Assembly: GCA_000146465.1 (NCBI GenBank)
Contig: CP001952.1
DNA: 64,000 nt
Strand: one strand, 5' to 3'
Both the position numbers and the translations under genes were made by a program. The notes beneath the pieces are model-generated. The model did not search any database. It had not been told where the DNA came from and worked only from the letters and a program-made list of their open reading frames with translations. This document shows positions 21,397 to 46,407 of this stretch, piece after piece; the first letter of the stretch is position 1, and every line of letters begins with the position of its first letter.

Positions 21397-22561
21397 ATGG
21401 ATATCTCCGAAGAAAAGTTCGATGTACTGGATTCTGTGCATGTCTCTGGATTCCGAATATTGAAAGACAGTGGGGAGTTCTACCAAAGAATTAAGTTTCT
21501 TATGCAGAACTCGACATCAGTATGTATAGCATCCCTATTCTTTGGAAAGAACGGAGAAATGGAGGACATCATCGACATTCTCGAAGAAAGAAAGAGGAAG
21601 AATCTCATGACAATCATCTTCATCGATAAAAACAGAGGGACAGTCTTCGAAAGTCTGGAGTCTATAAAAAGAAGGGGTCTTGGCTCATTTTTTCATCTTG
21701 TAGATCTCTCTACGTCTTTCCTGCTTCCAAGGAGACTAAATGAACTTCTCAGAACCTTCCATACTAAGGCCTTGGTTTTCGATGGCCTAACCATATTATC
21801 TGGTGCAAACATGGATGCATCGTACATGACAAACAGAGTAGATAGGTAAGTGAAGCATTTTAATTTTAAGATATCTCGAGATTGACAGTAGGGAGCTGGC
21901 GGATATGATCAGATCTAGAGTCTTTGGAATAAGGCCCCCTTTGGAGGCTGGAAAAACTATATGCCAGGGCCTTCCAGTGTATGTAGGTATGTTTAAAGAG
22001 AAAGAGGAGCCTGCCATAGTCCAGTCGTTTCTGGAAGACTTCGACGAGATACACATTTCCACAGGATATCTGAACTTTCCGGCTCGCTATTTCAAAATGC
22101 TCCAAGGAAAGAAGGTGTCTCTCTATGCTTCATGCCCAGATAAGAACACCTTCGACTCGTTTGGACCCTTGGAGCGATTCATAGGCCCAGCTTATTCATA
22201 TAGCTTCTACAGAACTCTCAGATCAATTTCAAGCCTTTCCATTCACGAGCTGAAGAGGGACGGCCATTCATTCCATCTGAAAGGTAAGTGGAATTGTTAA
22301 TTTCTAGGCTTCTGGGGATTCAAGGGCAGAACAGCTGCAACCATCATAGGCTCATCAAACTTCAACAGGAGAAGCGTAGAAAGAGATGACGAAACAAATT
22401 ATCTAATAATCACATCCGACCCAGACCACGTTCAGAAGCTGAGGACTGAGGTGGAATATCTCAAGAGTAACTCAGAGGCAAGGACCTTGAAGCAGCTTAG
22501 AGGAAGGACATACCAGTTGGCCGTAATTCTATTGTTTCTGATTTTCAACAGATTCTTCTAA
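21397..22561 (+). CDS. PGS1: CDP-diacylglycerol--glycerol-3-phosphate 3-phosphatidyltransferase (PGS1-like, PLD superfamily), spliced as join(21397..21845,21871..22283,22308..22561)
   Basis: Three consecutive ORF pieces in different frames, each ending in a stop codon that lies inside a GTAAGT 5' splice site. Removing 21846..21870 and 22284..22307 gives a continuous 378-aa protein. It has HKD motif 1 (HTKALVFDG...SGANMDASYMTNRVDR|Y, compare PGS1 SGANLSxDYFTNRQDRY) and motif 2 (HLK|GFWGFKGRTAATIIGSSNFNRRSVERDDE). Confidence 0.7.
21846..21870 (+). other. spliceosomal intron (25 nt) GTAAGTGAAGCATTTTAATTTTAAG, phase 2
   Basis: The GT..AG boundaries restore the reading frame exactly (codon AG|A), and the ORF 1 stop codon TAA lies within GTAAGT. 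Confidence 0.7.
22284..22307 (+). other. spliceosomal intron (24 nt) GTAAGTGGAATTGTTAATTTCTAG, phase 1
   Basis: Splicing joins HLK to GFWGFKG...GSSNFNRRS (second HKD-like motif). The unspliced read hits a stop 5 codons later. Confidence 0.7.
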
Positions 22562-22582: not shown

Positions 22583-24610
22583 TCAGCATCTATCCAAATC
22601 CTTCTCAACCTTGCTGAACATGTGGTTAGCCCCCTTGAGCAGATCTTCCAGAGTCACCTCCACACAGCATCTTACAAACTCTCTCCCTGTCCTGCATAGG
22701 CTGTGGTATAAAATGTACTTTGCACGTTTTCTCGACATGCAGCTTGTGTTATGGACAAAGAACTGTGTATCGTTGAATATAGAGACATACGAGGATCCCT
22801 CGACAAGCTTTGCAACGTTCATGAAATATCCTGCACAGAACGACAGAACAATCTTACTTTCATCAGACTTGCATGGCCCATTGAACATGGAACATAGTTG
22901 CTTCTTTATCTTCACTGTCTGAAGCATTGCTCTAACATTTAGAAATGATCTCTTGAGATGTGATATCTTGAATCCAGTTCTTTCCCACATCCTATATATC
23001 TTAAGAAACGAGAAATGGTCTCCTCTTCTATCAAAATACAATGACTTTGCATCCAAAAACGCCTTGTGAGATTGGCTGTACTTTGGAATGTCCAGCCATA
23101 TGTTTCCCACACTTAGCATGGCTGCAATGATTGAAACATCCTCAAGGCACCCCAGATCCGAAGATACAATCAGGGAAATCGCTAGCTCCGGCTCTAGAGG
23201 GATTTTCGAGGCTCTGGCTCCAATCGGTGTTATCTTTCCATCTCCTCCTATGGCCTTGAGGTAGTACAGCAACTCTAGGGCCTTCCTCACATTCGAGGTA
23301 TCGGGCTTATCTATAAGGTCGAAGTTCACTATGTCATTCACTCCAATCGACTTCAGTTCAAGCACTGCCTTGGCAAGATTGCAGCAGAAAATCTCTGGTA
23401 TTGTATTCTCGCTCATCTCTTGGAATTCCTCTTTGGAGTATAACCGAAACACCTTTCCTTCCTGGGTTCTCCCTGCTCTCCCTGCCCTCTGCTTGGCCTG
23501 TGCCTTCGATATCCATGCCACCTCCAAGATGTCCATTCCAAAGGCCCCAGAGTATCTCATCTGCTTGGCTCGCCCGCAGTCCACAACATATTTTATACCC
23601 TCAATGGTTATCGATGTCTCCGCAATGTTTGTTGCAAGGACAATCTTTCTTTTCTTCGTCTTCTTGAACACAAGCTCCTGCTCCTCGGGTGAAAGCATGC
23701 TGTATATGCAATACACCTCGGCGTCGTTCCCTAAGATCTCTACAAGGATGTTTCTCCCGTTGTTGATCTCCTCCTTTCCCGTTAGAAACACCAATATGTC
23801 TCCTTCTTCCTCTGTCCTATGTATCTGTACCACTGTCTTCACAGCTTCGTCCAGATAATCCAAAGCCCCAGCCTTCTTCAAGAAAAATATCTCCAATGGA
23901 AACATTCTGTGGCGAATCTCAACCGTTTGGCATCTAAAAAACGAAATAAACTTCTCAGAGCTTAGCGTTGCACTCATTATAATCACCCGAAGATCCTTCC
24001 TCTTGCTCAGAATCGATTTCAGATATCCCAGAAGAATGTCTATGTTGACACTTCTTTCATGTGCCTCGTCGATAATCACAACATCATATCTATTGAGGCA
24101 TTTATCACTGACTATCTCCCGAAGCAAAATCCCGTCTGTAGCATATTTAAGCCTCGTTTTCTTACTCGATACATCGTTAAATCTTACAGAGTATCCAACC
24201 TCCATCCCTATCTTCACATTCATATCCTGGGCAACCTTCTTGGCAACACTTACAGCTGCAATCCTTCTGGGCTGCGTGCACACTATGCTCTTGTATCTCT
24301 CAAGAAGATATCTCGGGACTTTCGTTGTCTTCCCACATCCTGTGTCTCCTTCAATCAACAGAACTTGGCTCTTTTCAAGCTTCGAGAAAATCTCCCCCAT
24401 CTTATCTTTAACACTCTCTTCTCCAGATCTCTCCTCCTTCTTCTCCGTACTTATTAGCAAGTCCATTATTTCCTCCTCTGCTATGGAGTCCTTCTTGTCT
24501 TTGGCTAGGGGAAACAGTTCTGGAGGAATCTCTCGATTGATGCGTATTTCTGTTTCCATCCCTTTGAACACCGTTCTTTCTTCCATTCCCAATTCTCCAG
24601 GGGTCCGCAC
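22583..24610 (-). CDS. DEAH-box ATP-dependent RNA helicase (Prp43/Prp2-like)
   Basis: GDTGCGKTTKVPRYLLE (motif I), IIDEAHERS (motif II DEAH), SAT, TNIAETSITIEGIKYVVD and QRAGRAGR, with a short N-terminal extension. Confidence 0.8.
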   Translation of the reverse strand: MRTPGELGMEERTVFKGMETEIRINREIPPELFPLAKDKKDSIAEEEIMDLLISTEKKEERSGEESVKDKMGEIFSKLEKSQVLLIEGDTGCGKTTKVPRYLLERYKSIVCTQPRRIAAVSVAKKVAQDMNVKIGMEVGYSVRFNDVSSKKTRLKYATDGILLREIVSDKCLNRYDVVIIDEAHERSVNIDILLGYLKSILSKRKDLRVIIMSATLSSEKFISFFRCQTVEIRHRMFPLEIFFLKKAGALDYLDEAVKTVVQIHRTEEEGDILVFLTGKEEINNGRNILVEILGNDAEVYCIYSMLSPEEQELVFKKTKKRKIVLATNIAETSITIEGIKYVVDCGRAKQMRYSGAFGMDILEVAWISKAQAKQRAGRAGRTQEGKVFRLYSKEEFQEMSENTIPEIFCCNLAKAVLELKSIGVNDIVNFDLIDKPDTSNVRKALELLYYLKAIGGDGKITPIGARASKIPLEPELAISLIVSSDLGCLEDVSIIAAMLSVGNIWLDIPKYSQSHKAFLDAKSLYFDRRGDHFSFLKIYRMWERTGFKISHLKRSFLNVRAMLQTVKIKKQLCSMFNGPCKSDESKIVLSFCAGYFMNVAKLVEGSSYVSIFNDTQFFVHNTSCMSRKRAKYILYHSLCRTGREFVRCCVEVTLEDLLKGANHMFSKVEKDLDRC

Positions 24611-24818
24611 TTATCTTCCCTATCCCCAGAAACATATATTTTTTTTGAAAAGACCCCTTGCTTGCCTAGCCGATAAGAACGAGTCTTTTGCCTTTTACTG
24701 AAGACTCCCATGGCTAGACACCGTGCCACACAGCAATTTTTGGAATGCTGATCAACTCAGCCTTGTTGTCGTAACATCTTCATCTAGCTTCTAAGATACA
24801 TCATCAAAAAAGAATACT

Positions 24819-25787: not shown

Positions 25788-26112
25788 TTGTTTGGGAAAG
25801 GTTCTACTTAATTATAAAGAAATTAAAATGTTTTAGATTAAAACTAGATGGATGCCCAAGAGTAAGCCTCATTCAGTTGGGTAGAACCATACCTAACAGC
25901 ATTATTCTATTGCAATGATGAAAGAAATCACTTAAGATGGCCCTTTCGGCATCGTCCGAGGACTTTCCATAGAGCTCATATGTGCTCCAACGCTGTTCTT
26001 CGGACATCCATGGGCATTTCTGGAAACTCCTAAAAATATAAAATTTTTGCTTCCAGCTTCCAACCAGAGTCCAACTAAAAAAGAAGCAGTACCAACATTA
26101 TTTAAGATTAAT

Positions 26113-44395: not shown

Positions 44396-44937
44396 ATGAT
44401 GAGAACAACATTCAAGACTCTATGCCTTCTTCTCACCAACATCTTGTTGCTACTATCCAGCTGTGTTCTCGGAGCACTAATATCCTCAATCCCAAACTCC
44501 AAAAGCATATACAAGAATGCAAATATACAGATCACTTACATGCTCCTTCTTGCAAATGCAGGCCTTTCTCTTTTTACTTTTGTGATAGTTCAGAACCTCA
44601 ACGATGTATTTCTTCACAGGGCAAGGTCTCCAAGAGGTGTTGAGACGAAGATGAAGATCCAATGGATAATTCTCTCGATAGTGACGTTTTTTTTCGGGGT
44701 CTTCCACTTGCCACTAATTACATCCAACACAGAGAAGTTTCTCAAAATGGACATCATGGCCTTAATGACTGCCACGATCTTAGCTCTACAAGTAAGTGAA
44801 AAAGTTAATTTTAGATTGTTATGCTCTTCATTGTATACTCCATGCATCCAGACTTGTTTGGAATCAAGTATAACCGAGAGATTCGGAACTATGTGGAAAG
44901 ACTTGAAGCAGAGTCTAGTAGGGAAAACAGGATGTGA
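44396..44937 (+). CDS. hypothetical multi-pass membrane protein, probably spliced as join(44396..44791,44815..44937)
   Basis: Four hydrophobic helices. GTAAGTGAAAAAGTTAATTTTAG at 44792..44814 has the same architecture as the two PGS1 introns. The spliced reading continues with a hydrophobic helix (IVMLFIVYSMHPDLFGI). The unspliced ORF would instead run to 45007. Confidence 0.45.
44792..44814 (+). other. candidate spliceosomal intron (23 nt), phase 0
   Basis: Shares the GTAAGTG 5' end and a TTAATTT element 2-3 nt before the AG with the introns at 21846 and 22284. Confidence 0.5.
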
Positions 44938-45046
44938 CAGCAGGCTTTTACAAACAATATCCTTTAAGAATAAACTTCGTTTTACTCCTATTTACAGGAA
45001 CTTTTAGAAAGAGAAGATCCGAGGCTTTATTGGATAAACACATACT

Positions 45047-45546: not shown

Positions 45547-46407
45547 ATGTTTGCTATTTCTTTGATATTTGTGGCTCTTGCCATTGCTTACTTTGCTGTA
45601 AGACTCGGCACCACACATGAAATAAAGAATAAAAAAATTCTAGTAATCGGAGGTAGCAGCGGACTTGGCCTGGCCTTTGCTCGTGTGTTGAAAAAGGAAG
45701 GAAACAACGTCACAATAACATCAAGATCAATGGAAAGACTCGTGCCACTTGGAAAGAAATGGGGCTTTGAAACCAAGGTACTGGATATAAATGTTGTAGG
45801 CGGGCAGGAATCCACAGACTTCGACTACATATTCTGCTGTCCAGGTGTCTCATATCCTGCATACTTTGTCGACCAACCGCTTGAAACTTTTCAGGATACG
45901 ATGAGTACAAACTACCTAGGGACTGTTGCCATGCTGAAGCACTACGCAGAAGTTAACAAAAAGCCTTTTAAGTTTGTCATGATAGGATCGACACTTGTTC
46001 TACTTACATTTCCTGGGTTTTCTTCATACTCCCCAACAAAGACTGCTCTCCTTTCGCTCTTCTGTACTGTTCGTGATGAAATGGAGAGGCAAGGAGTGGA
46101 GCTCTATCTTTACAATACGGCATCCATCCTGACTCCGGGCTTTGAGAGAGAAAACAAGACAAAGCCTTCATACACAAAGGCCATTGAAGAGATGGTCCCT
46201 CCATCCTCGGCTGAGGAGAGGGCTGTAGCATTTCTGATTGGGATGAAAAAGAGAAGAATGGTGGCATCGGATGTCTTCACATACTTGTGCCAAATAAGAT
46301 TTGAATGTGAATGTCTTATCGACTACATCCTATTCCCTGTTTCTGTTGCCGTTGTATTTATTGTGCGGGCTTATGTGAAATGGAGGTTCATGGCCGAGAA
46401 AATGTAG
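45547..46407 (+). CDS. short-chain dehydrogenase/reductase, 3-ketodihydrosphingosine reductase-like
   Basis: N-terminal TM, ILVIGGSSGLGLAFARVL (NAD(P)-binding TGxxxGxG), a catalytic Y-x3-K region (SYSPTKTAL) and a C-terminal TM, as in KDSR/Tsc10. Confidence 0.55.
   Translation: MFAISLIFVALAIAYFAVRLGTTHEIKNKKILVIGGSSGLGLAFARVLKKEGNNVTITSRSMERLVPLGKKWGFETKVLDINVVGGQESTDFDYIFCCPGVSYPAYFVDQPLETFQDTMSTNYLGTVAMLKHYAEVNKKPFKFVMIGSTLVLLTFPGFSSYSPTKTALLSLFCTVRDEMERQGVELYLYNTASILTPGFERENKTKPSYTKAIEEMVPPSSAEERAVAFLIGMKKRRMVASDVFTYLCQIRFECECLIDYILFPVSVAVVFIVRAYVKWRFMAEKM

What the first reader, a model, noticed from the sequence alone, without database searches (positions are those of the whole stretch)
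21397..22561. PGS1-like gene is split by two ultrashort (25 and 24 nt) spliceosomal introns whose 5' splice sites contain the apparent stop codons
Three ORF fragments (21397..21849, 21905..22300 and the remainder to 22561) lie in three different frames. Both junctions have a GTAAGT whose TAA is the stop called by the ORF track. Removing GTAAGTGAAGCATTTTAATTTTAAG (21846..21870) and GTAAGTGGAATTGTTAATTTCTAG (22284..22307) restores one continuous frame. The first junction leaves the HKD1-region motif SGANMDASYMTNRVDR|Y contiguous, and the second rebuilds HKD2 (HLK|GFWGFKG...GSSNFNRRS). Introns this short (23-52 nt, starting GTAAGT) are the hallmark of microsporidian-type reduced spliceosomes. An ORF-only annotation would report three fragments or a pseudogene.
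Basis: partly seen in the sequence, partly recalled or inferred. Interest (0 to 1): 0.75.

Follow-up and report, generated by a model that had tools for sequence, protein, structure and literature searches.

The report
Known two-intron PGS1 gene, Encephalitozoon
The gene really is interrupted by two tiny (25 and 24 nt) spliceosomal introns, but this is the ordinary, already annotated structure of the PGS1-type phospholipid synthase gene of the microsporidian Encephalitozoon intestinalis and its sister species, so it is correct but not new.

Summary
The window is Encephalitozoon intestinalis DNA: it is identical over 3904 nt to a contig of GCA_051312795.1. Removing them gives one 1116-nt CDS of 371 aa, not 378.

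That product is 371/371 identical to the deposited E. intestinalis ATCC 50506 protein (ADM12572.1 / XP_003073932.1 / UTX46428.1). The two-intron model is therefore already public.

- **Sister species:** E. cuniculi (ECU11_0850), E. hellem and E. romaleae carry and annotate the same two introns at the same codons.
- **Transcript evidence:** published E. cuniculi RNA-seq (Grisdale 2013) confirmed splicing of all annotated introns and found the upstream ECU11_0850 intron more efficiently spliced than the downstream one.
- **Boundaries:** intronless orthologues in Vairimorpha bombi and Nucleospora cyclopteri are co-linear across both junctions.

Exons 2 and 3 share one genomic frame. The stop inside intron 2 is the TAA of the TTAATTT branch-site-like motif, not of GTAAGT.

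Two annotation faults came out of the check. Two 2025 draft E. intestinalis assemblies carry a truncated 292-aa model that misses intron 2. A third intron of the same type (44792..44814) is unspliced in every E. intestinalis model I found.

Verdict: real, interpretation correct, already known, low interest.

The parts
21397..21845 (+). Exon 1 of the PGS1-type gene (aa 1-149 plus 2 nt of codon 150). It contains the HKD1 motif HTKALVFDGLTILSGANMD at 21760..21816.
   Evidence: Pfam PLDc hit at aa 120-141. Third-position-biased substitutions across four species: 0.22/0.18/0.49 at codon positions 1/2/3.
21846..21870 (+). Intron 1, 25 nt, phase 2: GTAAGTGAAGCATTTTAATTTTAAG. It has a 5' GTAAGT, a TTAATTT branch-site-like motif and a 3' AG. 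The TAA of GTAAGT (21847..21849) ends the unspliced ORF.
   Evidence: Same position and length in E. cuniculi, E. hellem and E. romaleae, with 22/25 columns invariant. Present in L006 and absent in L005, V. bombi and N. cyclopteri.
21871..22283 (+). Exon 2 (aa 150-288, partial codons at both ends).
   Evidence: Substitution pattern 0.24/0.15/0.48 at codon positions 1/2/3.
22284..22307 (+). Intron 2, 24 nt, phase 1: GTAAGTGGAATTGTTAATTTCTAG. It splits HKD2 after H-L-K-G. The in-frame stop is the TAA at 22298..22300, inside the TTAATTT motif.
   Evidence: Length is 25/23/24/24 nt in E. cuniculi/hellem/romaleae/intestinalis, 25 nt in L005 and 24 nt in L006, while the flanking codons stay fixed.
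22308..22561 (+). Exon 3 (aa 288-371 plus the stop codon at 22559..22561). It carries the rest of HKD2 (FWGF...IGSSNFNRRS) and a hydrophobic C-terminal tail.
   Evidence: Pfam PLDc_2 hit at aa 263-338. Substitution pattern 0.19/0.12/0.43.

Best explanation
Window 21397..22561 (+) is the single-copy E. intestinalis orthologue of E. cuniculi ECU11_0850. It encodes a 371-aa PLD-superfamily (two HKD motifs) CDP-diacylglycerol phosphatidyltransferase of the eukaryotic PGS1 / bacterial PssA type.

Two canonical microsporidian mini-introns of 25 and 24 nt interrupt the pre-mRNA. Each consists of little more than a GUAAGU 5' splice site, a UUAAUUU branch-site-like motif and a 3' AG a few nucleotides further on. 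The reduced microsporidian spliceosome removes them and joins codons ...VDR|YLE... and ...HLKG|FWGF.... Only the doubly spliced mRNA encodes both HKD motifs.

Unspliced or partly spliced transcripts end at a TAA inside the retained intron, giving 150-aa or 292-aa products. These are expected to be common, because short Encephalitozoon introns are spliced inefficiently.

Shown here: gene structure, conservation, co-linearity with intronless orthologues, and identity to the deposited protein. Taken from the literature: actual splicing, measured in E. cuniculi. Inferred: that splicing happens in E. intestinalis, the position of the branch adenosine, and the enzyme's substrate (glycerol-3-phosphate rather than serine).
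For: - **Organism:** the window is identical over 3904 nt to E. intestinalis contig JBLUPK010000031.1.
- **Product:** the spliced product is 371/371 identical to P0013 = ADM12572.1 / XP_003073932.1 / UTX46428.1.
- **Orthologue models:** gene span exceeds the CDS by 50, 48 and 49 nt in E. cuniculi, E. hellem and E. romaleae. This matches a GTAAGT...AG element at each of the same two codons.
- **Intron 2 length:** it varies (23, 24 or 25 nt) while the flanking reading frames are preserved. Coding sequence could not do this.
- **Selection:** all three exons show third-position-biased divergence in the spliced frame.
- **Boundaries:** intronless orthologues (V. bombi 366 aa, N. cyclopteri 380 aa, translated directly from DNA) and chytrid PGS1 proteins align without gaps across both junctions.
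- **Motif:** 3 hits against 0.06 expected by chance.
- **Family:** Pfam PLDc_2 at 2.6e-11 and PLDc at 1.1e-4, both above their cut-offs.
- **Transcripts:** E. cuniculi RNA-seq confirmed splicing of all annotated introns and singles out ECU11_0850 for its better-spliced upstream intron (PMC3629993). ECU11_0850 is the orthologue.
Against: - No E. intestinalis transcript data were available, so splicing in this species rests on conservation and on E. cuniculi RNA-seq.
- Average splicing of short E. cuniculi introns is reported as under 20% (PMC6349667). Most transcripts may therefore not encode the full enzyme.
- Frame restoration alone is not diagnostic: 234 alternative GT..AG pairings also give an open frame.
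- Substrate specificity is unresolved. Old annotations call the protein a phosphatidylserine synthase. The bacterial PssA NCBIfam model scores 59.9 bits, far below its 314-bit cut-off.
Confidence: 0.96

Rival explanations
1. A decaying pseudogene: the frame shift and stops are inactivating mutations, and the GT..AG flanks are coincidence.
For: The unspliced sequence has an in-frame stop at each junction. Two GenBank models end at the second one.
Against: - The same interruptions, with the same GTAAGT...TAATTT...AG architecture, sit at the same codons in at least six genomes.
- All three exons show purifying selection in the spliced frame.
- The motif is about 50 times more frequent than chance.
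- The E. cuniculi orthologue is expressed and spliced.
Confidence: 0.01
2. Recoding instead of splicing: programmed ribosomal frameshifting at junction 1 and stop-codon read-through at junction 2, on an unspliced mRNA.
For: Intron 2 is a multiple of 3 in E. intestinalis. Read-through of its single TAA would keep the frame. In L006 the 24-nt element has no stop at all, and a gene caller read straight through it (P0008).
Against: - Intron 2 is 23 nt in E. hellem and 25 nt in E. cuniculi and L005, so read-through fails there.
- Intronless orthologues lack the extra 8 residues inside HKD2.
- Spliced reads were reported for E. cuniculi.
Confidence: 0.01
3. Regulated intron retention: the poorly spliced intron 2 is kept on purpose, to make a 292-aa single-HKD protein or to throttle enzyme output.
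For: Grisdale et al. report lower splicing of the downstream ECU11_0850 intron and suggest the truncated product is 'potentially still functional'. They also report significant time-point changes in both introns of an unnamed two-intron gene.
Against: - PLD-superfamily catalysis needs two HKD motifs (established knowledge). The 292-aa product lacks the second one and the C-terminal hydrophobic tail.
- Low splicing is a general property of short Encephalitozoon introns, not a feature of this gene.
- V. bombi and N. cyclopteri manage without either intron.
Confidence: 0.05
4. Three separate small genes, or an assembly or sequencing artefact that introduced indels.
For: An ORF caller lists separate fragments. 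A Logan assembly yielded the 131-aa middle ORF as a separate protein (P0014).
Against: - Independent E. intestinalis assemblies give the identical sequence.
- All homologues are single proteins covering all three parts.
Confidence: 0.005

Closest known systems
E. intestinalis ATCC 50506 protein ADM12572.1 / XP_003073932.1 / UTX46428.1 (371 aa; named 'CDP diacylglycerol serine' by NCBI and CDP-diacylglycerol--glycerol-3-phosphate 3-phosphatidyltransferase by UniRef)
   Same: 371/371 identical to the product obtained by removing the two proposed introns. It is the same gene in the same species with the same splice model.
   Different: Nothing differs. Only the models KAL7346555.1 and KAL7348492.1 from two 2025 draft isolates differ: they splice intron 1 and stop inside intron 2 at 292 aa.
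E. cuniculi ECU11_0850 (CAD25995.2 / NP_001402250.1), a two-intron gene studied by RNA-seq in Grisdale et al. 2013 (PMC3629993)
   Same: - Orthologue at 69% identity, with the same AAA-ATPase and DEAH-helicase neighbours.
- Introns at the same two codons: GTAAGTGAAGCATTTTAATTTCAAG and GTAAGTAGACAACACTAATTTCTAG.
   Different: Intron 2 is 25 nt rather than 24 nt, so it shifts the frame in E. cuniculi. Splicing levels were measured only in E. cuniculi.
[quoted passage not shown]
   Same: Length of 24-25 nt, a GTAAGT 5' site, a TAATTT motif a few nucleotides before the AG, and GT-AG ends.
   Different: Nothing of note. [quoted passage not shown]
Eukaryotic PGS1 / bacterial PssA (PLD-superfamily CDP-diacylglycerol phosphatidyltransferases)
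   Same: Two HKD-type motifs. The best non-microsporidian hits are chytrid proteins named PGS1 (E = 3.6e-21 and 8.1e-18). Both halves align to Haemophilus PssA 3HSI (E = 1.1e-7).
   Different: Much shorter than chytrid PGS1 (371 aa against about 540 aa), with no N-terminal extension and a deleted inter-domain region. It falls far below the NCBIfam PssA equivalog cut-off. The substrate is untested.

Membership tests
Microsporidian (Encephalitozoon-type) short spliceosomal intron | GT...AG boundaries with a strict GTAAGT 5' splice site | tested here: met
   Both elements start with GTAAGT and end with AG. The same holds in five other genomes.
Microsporidian (Encephalitozoon-type) short spliceosomal intron | Length within the range reported for the genus (22-76 nt in E. 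cuniculi; PMC3629993) | tested here: met
   25 and 24 nt.
Microsporidian (Encephalitozoon-type) short spliceosomal intron | Conserved branch-point motif close to the 3' AG | tested here: met
   TTAATTT lies 2-4 nt before the AG in both introns. TAATTT is present in all 11 orthologous intron copies examined. The composite motif gives 3 hits against 0.06 expected. The published logo could not be read (figure only), so the match to the consensus is judged from these copies.
Microsporidian (Encephalitozoon-type) short spliceosomal intron | Removal restores a reading frame co-linear with intronless homologues | tested here: met
   There are no gaps at either junction against V. bombi, N. cyclopteri or chytrid PGS1.
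Microsporidian (Encephalitozoon-type) short spliceosomal intron | Spliced transcripts observed | not testable with these tools
   No E. intestinalis transcript data were available. For the E. cuniculi orthologue ECU11_0850, splicing of both introns is reported in PMC3629993.
PLD superfamily (PGS1 / PssA-type phosphatidyltransferase) | Two HKD (HxK...D...G[SA]xN) motifs in one chain | tested here: met
   HTKALVFD...SGAN at aa 122-138 and HLKGFWGF...GSSN at aa 285-304. Pfam PLDc_2 scores 43.9 bits against a cut-off of 27, and PLDc 22.5 against 21.9. The second motif lacks the Asp four residues after the Lys (a Gly in the microsporidian orthologues), and the chytrid PGS1 proteins lack it too.
Eukaryotic PGS1 (CDP-DAG--glycerol-3-phosphate 3-phosphatidyltransferase) | Orthology to characterised PGS1 and use of glycerol-3-phosphate as acceptor | tested here: inconclusive
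   The nearest non-microsporidian relatives are chytrid proteins that their sources name PGS1, and UniRef uses the same name. No characterised PGS1 was compared, and activity cannot be tested here.
Bacterial type I phosphatidylserine synthase PssA (NCBIfam NF006946) | Score at or above the equivalog cut-off (314 bits) | tested here: not met
   59.9 bits. The protein is homologous to PssA but not a member of the equivalog.

The most novel reading that the evidence does not exclude
Differential retention of intron 2 might be a conserved post-transcriptional control. Intron 2 splits the second HKD motif and is the less efficiently spliced intron in E. cuniculi. It survives in lineage L005, which has no intron 1 in this gene. 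Retention could set the level of active enzyme or yield a 292-aa single-HKD protein with its own role. Such a role would explain why this intron persists in one of the most reduced eukaryotic genomes.
Probability: 0.05. Interest if true: 0.45.

Novelty: already known. Interest (0 to 1): 0.1.

Why it matters
For biology it matters little. The gene structure, the intron class and the unequal splicing of these two introns in the orthologue are already published and deposited.

The practical value is quality control of annotation.
- The check shows that a sequence-only reader can recover Encephalitozoon mini-introns correctly.
- It flags two deposited E. intestinalis models (KAL7346555.1, KAL7348492.1) that lose the second catalytic motif because intron 2 was missed.
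- It flags a second gene, the ECU11_1060 orthologue at 44396..44937, whose intron is unspliced in every E. intestinalis model found.

A simple motif scan (GTAAGT-N5-30-TAATTT-N0-6-AG) found all three introns in 64 kb and nothing else. It would be a cheap audit for these Prodigal-based, manually curated annotations.

Tried and rejected
- **Splice-site uniqueness by frame restoration.** I enumerated all GT..AG pairs around both junctions. 234 combinations give an open frame, so frame restoration alone is not evidence. The boundaries rest on the motif and on homology.
- **GTAAGT enrichment or avoidance.** A mononucleotide expectation of about 39 suggested depletion. Dinucleotide shuffles give 19.7 +/- 4.2 against 15 observed, so I rejected it as unremarkable.
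- **Published intron lists.** I looked for the list of E. cuniculi intron-containing genes and the motif logo. The supplements held for PMC3629993 contain only expression values and a figure stub. Lee et al. 2010 ('Constrained intron structures in a microsporidian') is cited by 15 papers in the library but did not appear among the 10 listed results, so I did not read it.
- **Looser motif scan.** A Python scan of all 15 GTAAGT sites replaced it. It found no short candidate beyond the three introns, only a 66-nt loose match at 46007 (-) that I did not examine.
- **Enzyme specificity.** The NCBIfam and PDB sequence searches show only distant homology to PssA. Substrate is left as an inference.
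- **Pseudogene, recoding, separate-gene and assembly-error readings.** I considered and rejected all four (see rivals).
- **Not run.** Structure prediction, fold search and the large representative-protein search, because the identity of the gene was settled by exact matches.

Full report
**What is in the sequence**

ORFs 21397..21849 (150 aa) and 21905..22300 (131 aa) are present as described. GTAAGTGAAGCATTTTAATTTTAAG occupies 21846..21870 (25 nt). GTAAGTGGAATTGTTAATTTCTAG occupies 22284..22307 (24 nt). Removing both gives one 1116-nt frame ending at 22561 and encoding 371 aa.

Two details in the finding are wrong.
- Intron 2 is a multiple of 3, so exons 2 and 3 share one genomic frame. Positions 21905, 22310 and 22451 are all 2 mod 3. 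The fragments therefore lie in two frames, not three.
- The stop that ends the middle ORF (22298..22300) is the TAA inside GTTAATTT near the 3' end of intron 2. Only the first ORF stops at the TAA of GTAAGT (21847..21849).

**Is it more than chance?**

The hexamer GTAAGT alone is unremarkable: 15 copies against 19.7 +/- 4.2 in dinucleotide shuffles. Frame restoration alone is also weak, because 234 GT..AG pair combinations give an open frame.

The composite signal GTAAGT-N(5-30)-TAATTT-N(0-6)-AG is different. It occurs 3 times against 0.06 expected, and no shuffle reached 3. Of the 15 GTAAGT sites, only these three are followed at short range by the TAATTT...AG tail.

**Organism and gene**

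The spliced protein hits Pfam PLDc_2 (2.6e-11) and PLDc (1.1e-4), both above their cut-offs. Its relatives are Encephalitozoon proteins. The window is identical over 3904 nt to contig JBLUPK010000031.1 of E. intestinalis assembly GCA_051312795.1.

The 371-aa product is 371/371 identical to P0013 = ADM12572.1 / XP_003073932.1 / UTX46428.1 / KAL7344580.1 of E. intestinalis ATCC 50506.

**Comparative evidence**

The orthologues keep the same neighbours: an AAA ATPase upstream and a DEAH helicase downstream, both on the opposite strand. Their annotated gene spans exceed the CDS by an amount that equals the two GTAAGT...AG elements found at the same codons.

| Species | Protein | Span minus CDS | Intron 1 / intron 2 |
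|---|---|---|---|
| E. cuniculi | 370 aa | 50 nt | 25 / 25 nt |
| E. hellem | 371 aa | 48 nt | 25 / 23 nt |
| E. romaleae | 371 aa | 49 nt | 25 / 24 nt |

- **Intron 1** has 22 of 25 columns invariant among the four Encephalitozoon species.
- **Intron 2** varies in length (23, 24 or 25 nt) while the flanking codons stay fixed. Coding sequence could not tolerate that.
- **Exons** all diverge mainly at third codon positions in the spliced frame: 0.49, 0.48 and 0.43, against 0.12-0.24 at positions 1 and 2.
- **More distant relatives.** A JGI metagenome contig (L006) has both introns. A Logan contig from SRR21023573 (L005) has exons 1 and 2 fused but keeps a 25-nt intron 2.
- **Intronless orthologues.** The Vairimorpha bombi and Nucleospora cyclopteri genes translate directly from the DNA. 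In a protein alignment, these two and two chytrid PGS1 proteins cross both junctions without a gap: NRVDRY against DRQDRY, and HLKGFWGF against HAKGLWC. This fixes the splice boundaries independently of the motif.

**Transcript evidence (literature)**

The E. cuniculi orthologue is ECU11_0850. Grisdale et al. 2013 (PMC3629993) make four relevant points.
- All previously annotated introns were confirmed as spliced by RNA-seq.
- One of the few two-intron genes, not named in the text, showed significant changes in splicing of both introns between time points.

Whelan et al. 2018 (PMC6349667) give average splicing of the short introns as under 20%. No E. intestinalis transcript data were available to me.

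**Mechanism**

- **Shown:** one gene with two conserved mini-introns. Only the doubly spliced message carries both HKD motifs, HTKALVFD...GAN at aa 122-138 and HLKG|FWGF...GSSN at aa 285-304. Intron 2 falls right inside the second.
- **From the literature:** removal by the reduced microsporidian spliceosome, at low efficiency.
- **Inferred:** a branch adenosine within UUAAU about 7 nt from the 3' end. Also inferred is that retention products of 150 or 292 aa are inactive, because PLD-family catalysis needs both HKD motifs (established knowledge).
- **Open:** whether the enzyme is PGS1 or a serine transferase. The best non-microsporidian hits are chytrid proteins named PGS1. Similarity to bacterial PssA is distant: 59.9 bits against a 314-bit cut-off, and E = 1.1e-7 to 3HSI. 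I read it as PGS1-like with its substrate untested.

**Rivals**

Four alternatives are contradicted: pseudogene, recoding, separate genes, and assembly error. The evidence against them is the multi-species conservation of the intron architecture, the non-triplet length changes in intron 2, purifying selection on all three exons, the single-protein homologues, and identical sequence in independent assemblies.

Regulated retention of intron 2 cannot be excluded. It has no specific support beyond the unequal splicing reported in E. cuniculi.

**By-products**

1. Two GenBank models from 2025 draft isolates, KAL7346555.1 and KAL7348492.1 (292 aa), splice intron 1 but end at ...HLKGKWNC* inside intron 2. 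These genomes are annotated with Prodigal, with introns added by hand (PMC12697097 and PMC10158259).
2. The third motif hit, 44792..44814 (GTAAGTGAAAAAGTTAATTTTAG, 23 nt), is the intron of the ECU11_1060 orthologue.
   - Spliced models exist for E. cuniculi GB-M1 (P0033) and EcunIII-L (P0034), and for E. hellem (P0035, P0036).
   - Every E. intestinalis model found is unspliced: Eint_110930 at 118 aa, and UTX46450.1 with three KAL accessions at 202 aa.
   - The spliced 172-aa product is absent from the collection.
   - Its C-terminus (...LQ|IVMLFIVYSMHPDLFGIK...) is conserved and co-linear with an intronless orthologue.
3. A U5 snRNA gene (24658..24763 +) and an RNase MRP RNA gene (25850..26010 -) lie just beyond the DEAH helicase gene that follows the intron-containing gene.

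**Verdict**

The structure is already annotated in this species and its relatives and is supported by published RNA-seq in the orthologue. Novelty: already known. Interest: low (0.1).

Noticed in passing
window 44792..44814 (+), within ORF 44396..45007; spliced CDS 44396..44791 + 44815..44937: A third mini-intron (GTAAGTGAAAAAGTTAATTTTAG, 23 nt) sits in the orthologue of E. cuniculi ECU11_1060, a small hypothetical membrane protein.
- The intron is spliced in the E. cuniculi GB-M1 and E. hellem models.
- Every E. intestinalis model found reads through it: Eint_110930 (118 aa), and UTX46450.1 with three KAL accessions (202 aa).
- The spliced 172-aa product is not in the 15-billion-protein collection.
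- Its C-terminus is conserved and co-linear with an intronless orthologue.
   Followed up: yes
window 21397..22300 (= L004 1501..2404): Two GenBank E. intestinalis models from 2025 draft isolates (KAL7346555.1, KAL7348492.1; 292 aa) splice intron 1 but miss intron 2. They therefore lack the second HKD motif. A third 2025 accession (KAL7344580.1) and ATCC 50506 have the full 371-aa model.
   Followed up: yes
L005 1501..2700 and L009 601..1209 (Logan contigs from SRR21023573): An unidentified Encephalitozoon-like microsporidian has the same gene order and 55% identity in PGS1. It lacks intron 1 of the PGS1 gene and the ECU11_1060-type intron, but keeps PGS1 intron 2. This suggests lineage-specific precise intron loss, or gain in the other lineage. 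I did not determine the organism.
   Followed up: partly
L006 1976..1999 (JGI metagenome 3300073837): In this relative the 24-nt intron 2 contains no in-frame stop. A gene caller translated straight through it (P0008...HLKGKWAFLISGFWGF...). Retention there would insert 8 residues into HKD2 instead of truncating the protein.
   Followed up: partly
window 24658..24763 (+) and 25850..26010 (-): A U5 spliceosomal snRNA gene (54.9 bits, gathering score 40) and an RNase MRP RNA gene (63.7 bits, gathering score 50) lie just beyond the DEAH-box helicase gene (22583..24610, -) that follows the intron-containing gene.
   Followed up: no
window 46007 (-): This GTAAGT site gave a loose 66-nt match (GTAAGT...TTAACT...AG) in the Python scan of all 15 GTAAGT sites. 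It is within the published 22-76 nt intron range. I did not check it for frame restoration or conservation.
   Followed up: no
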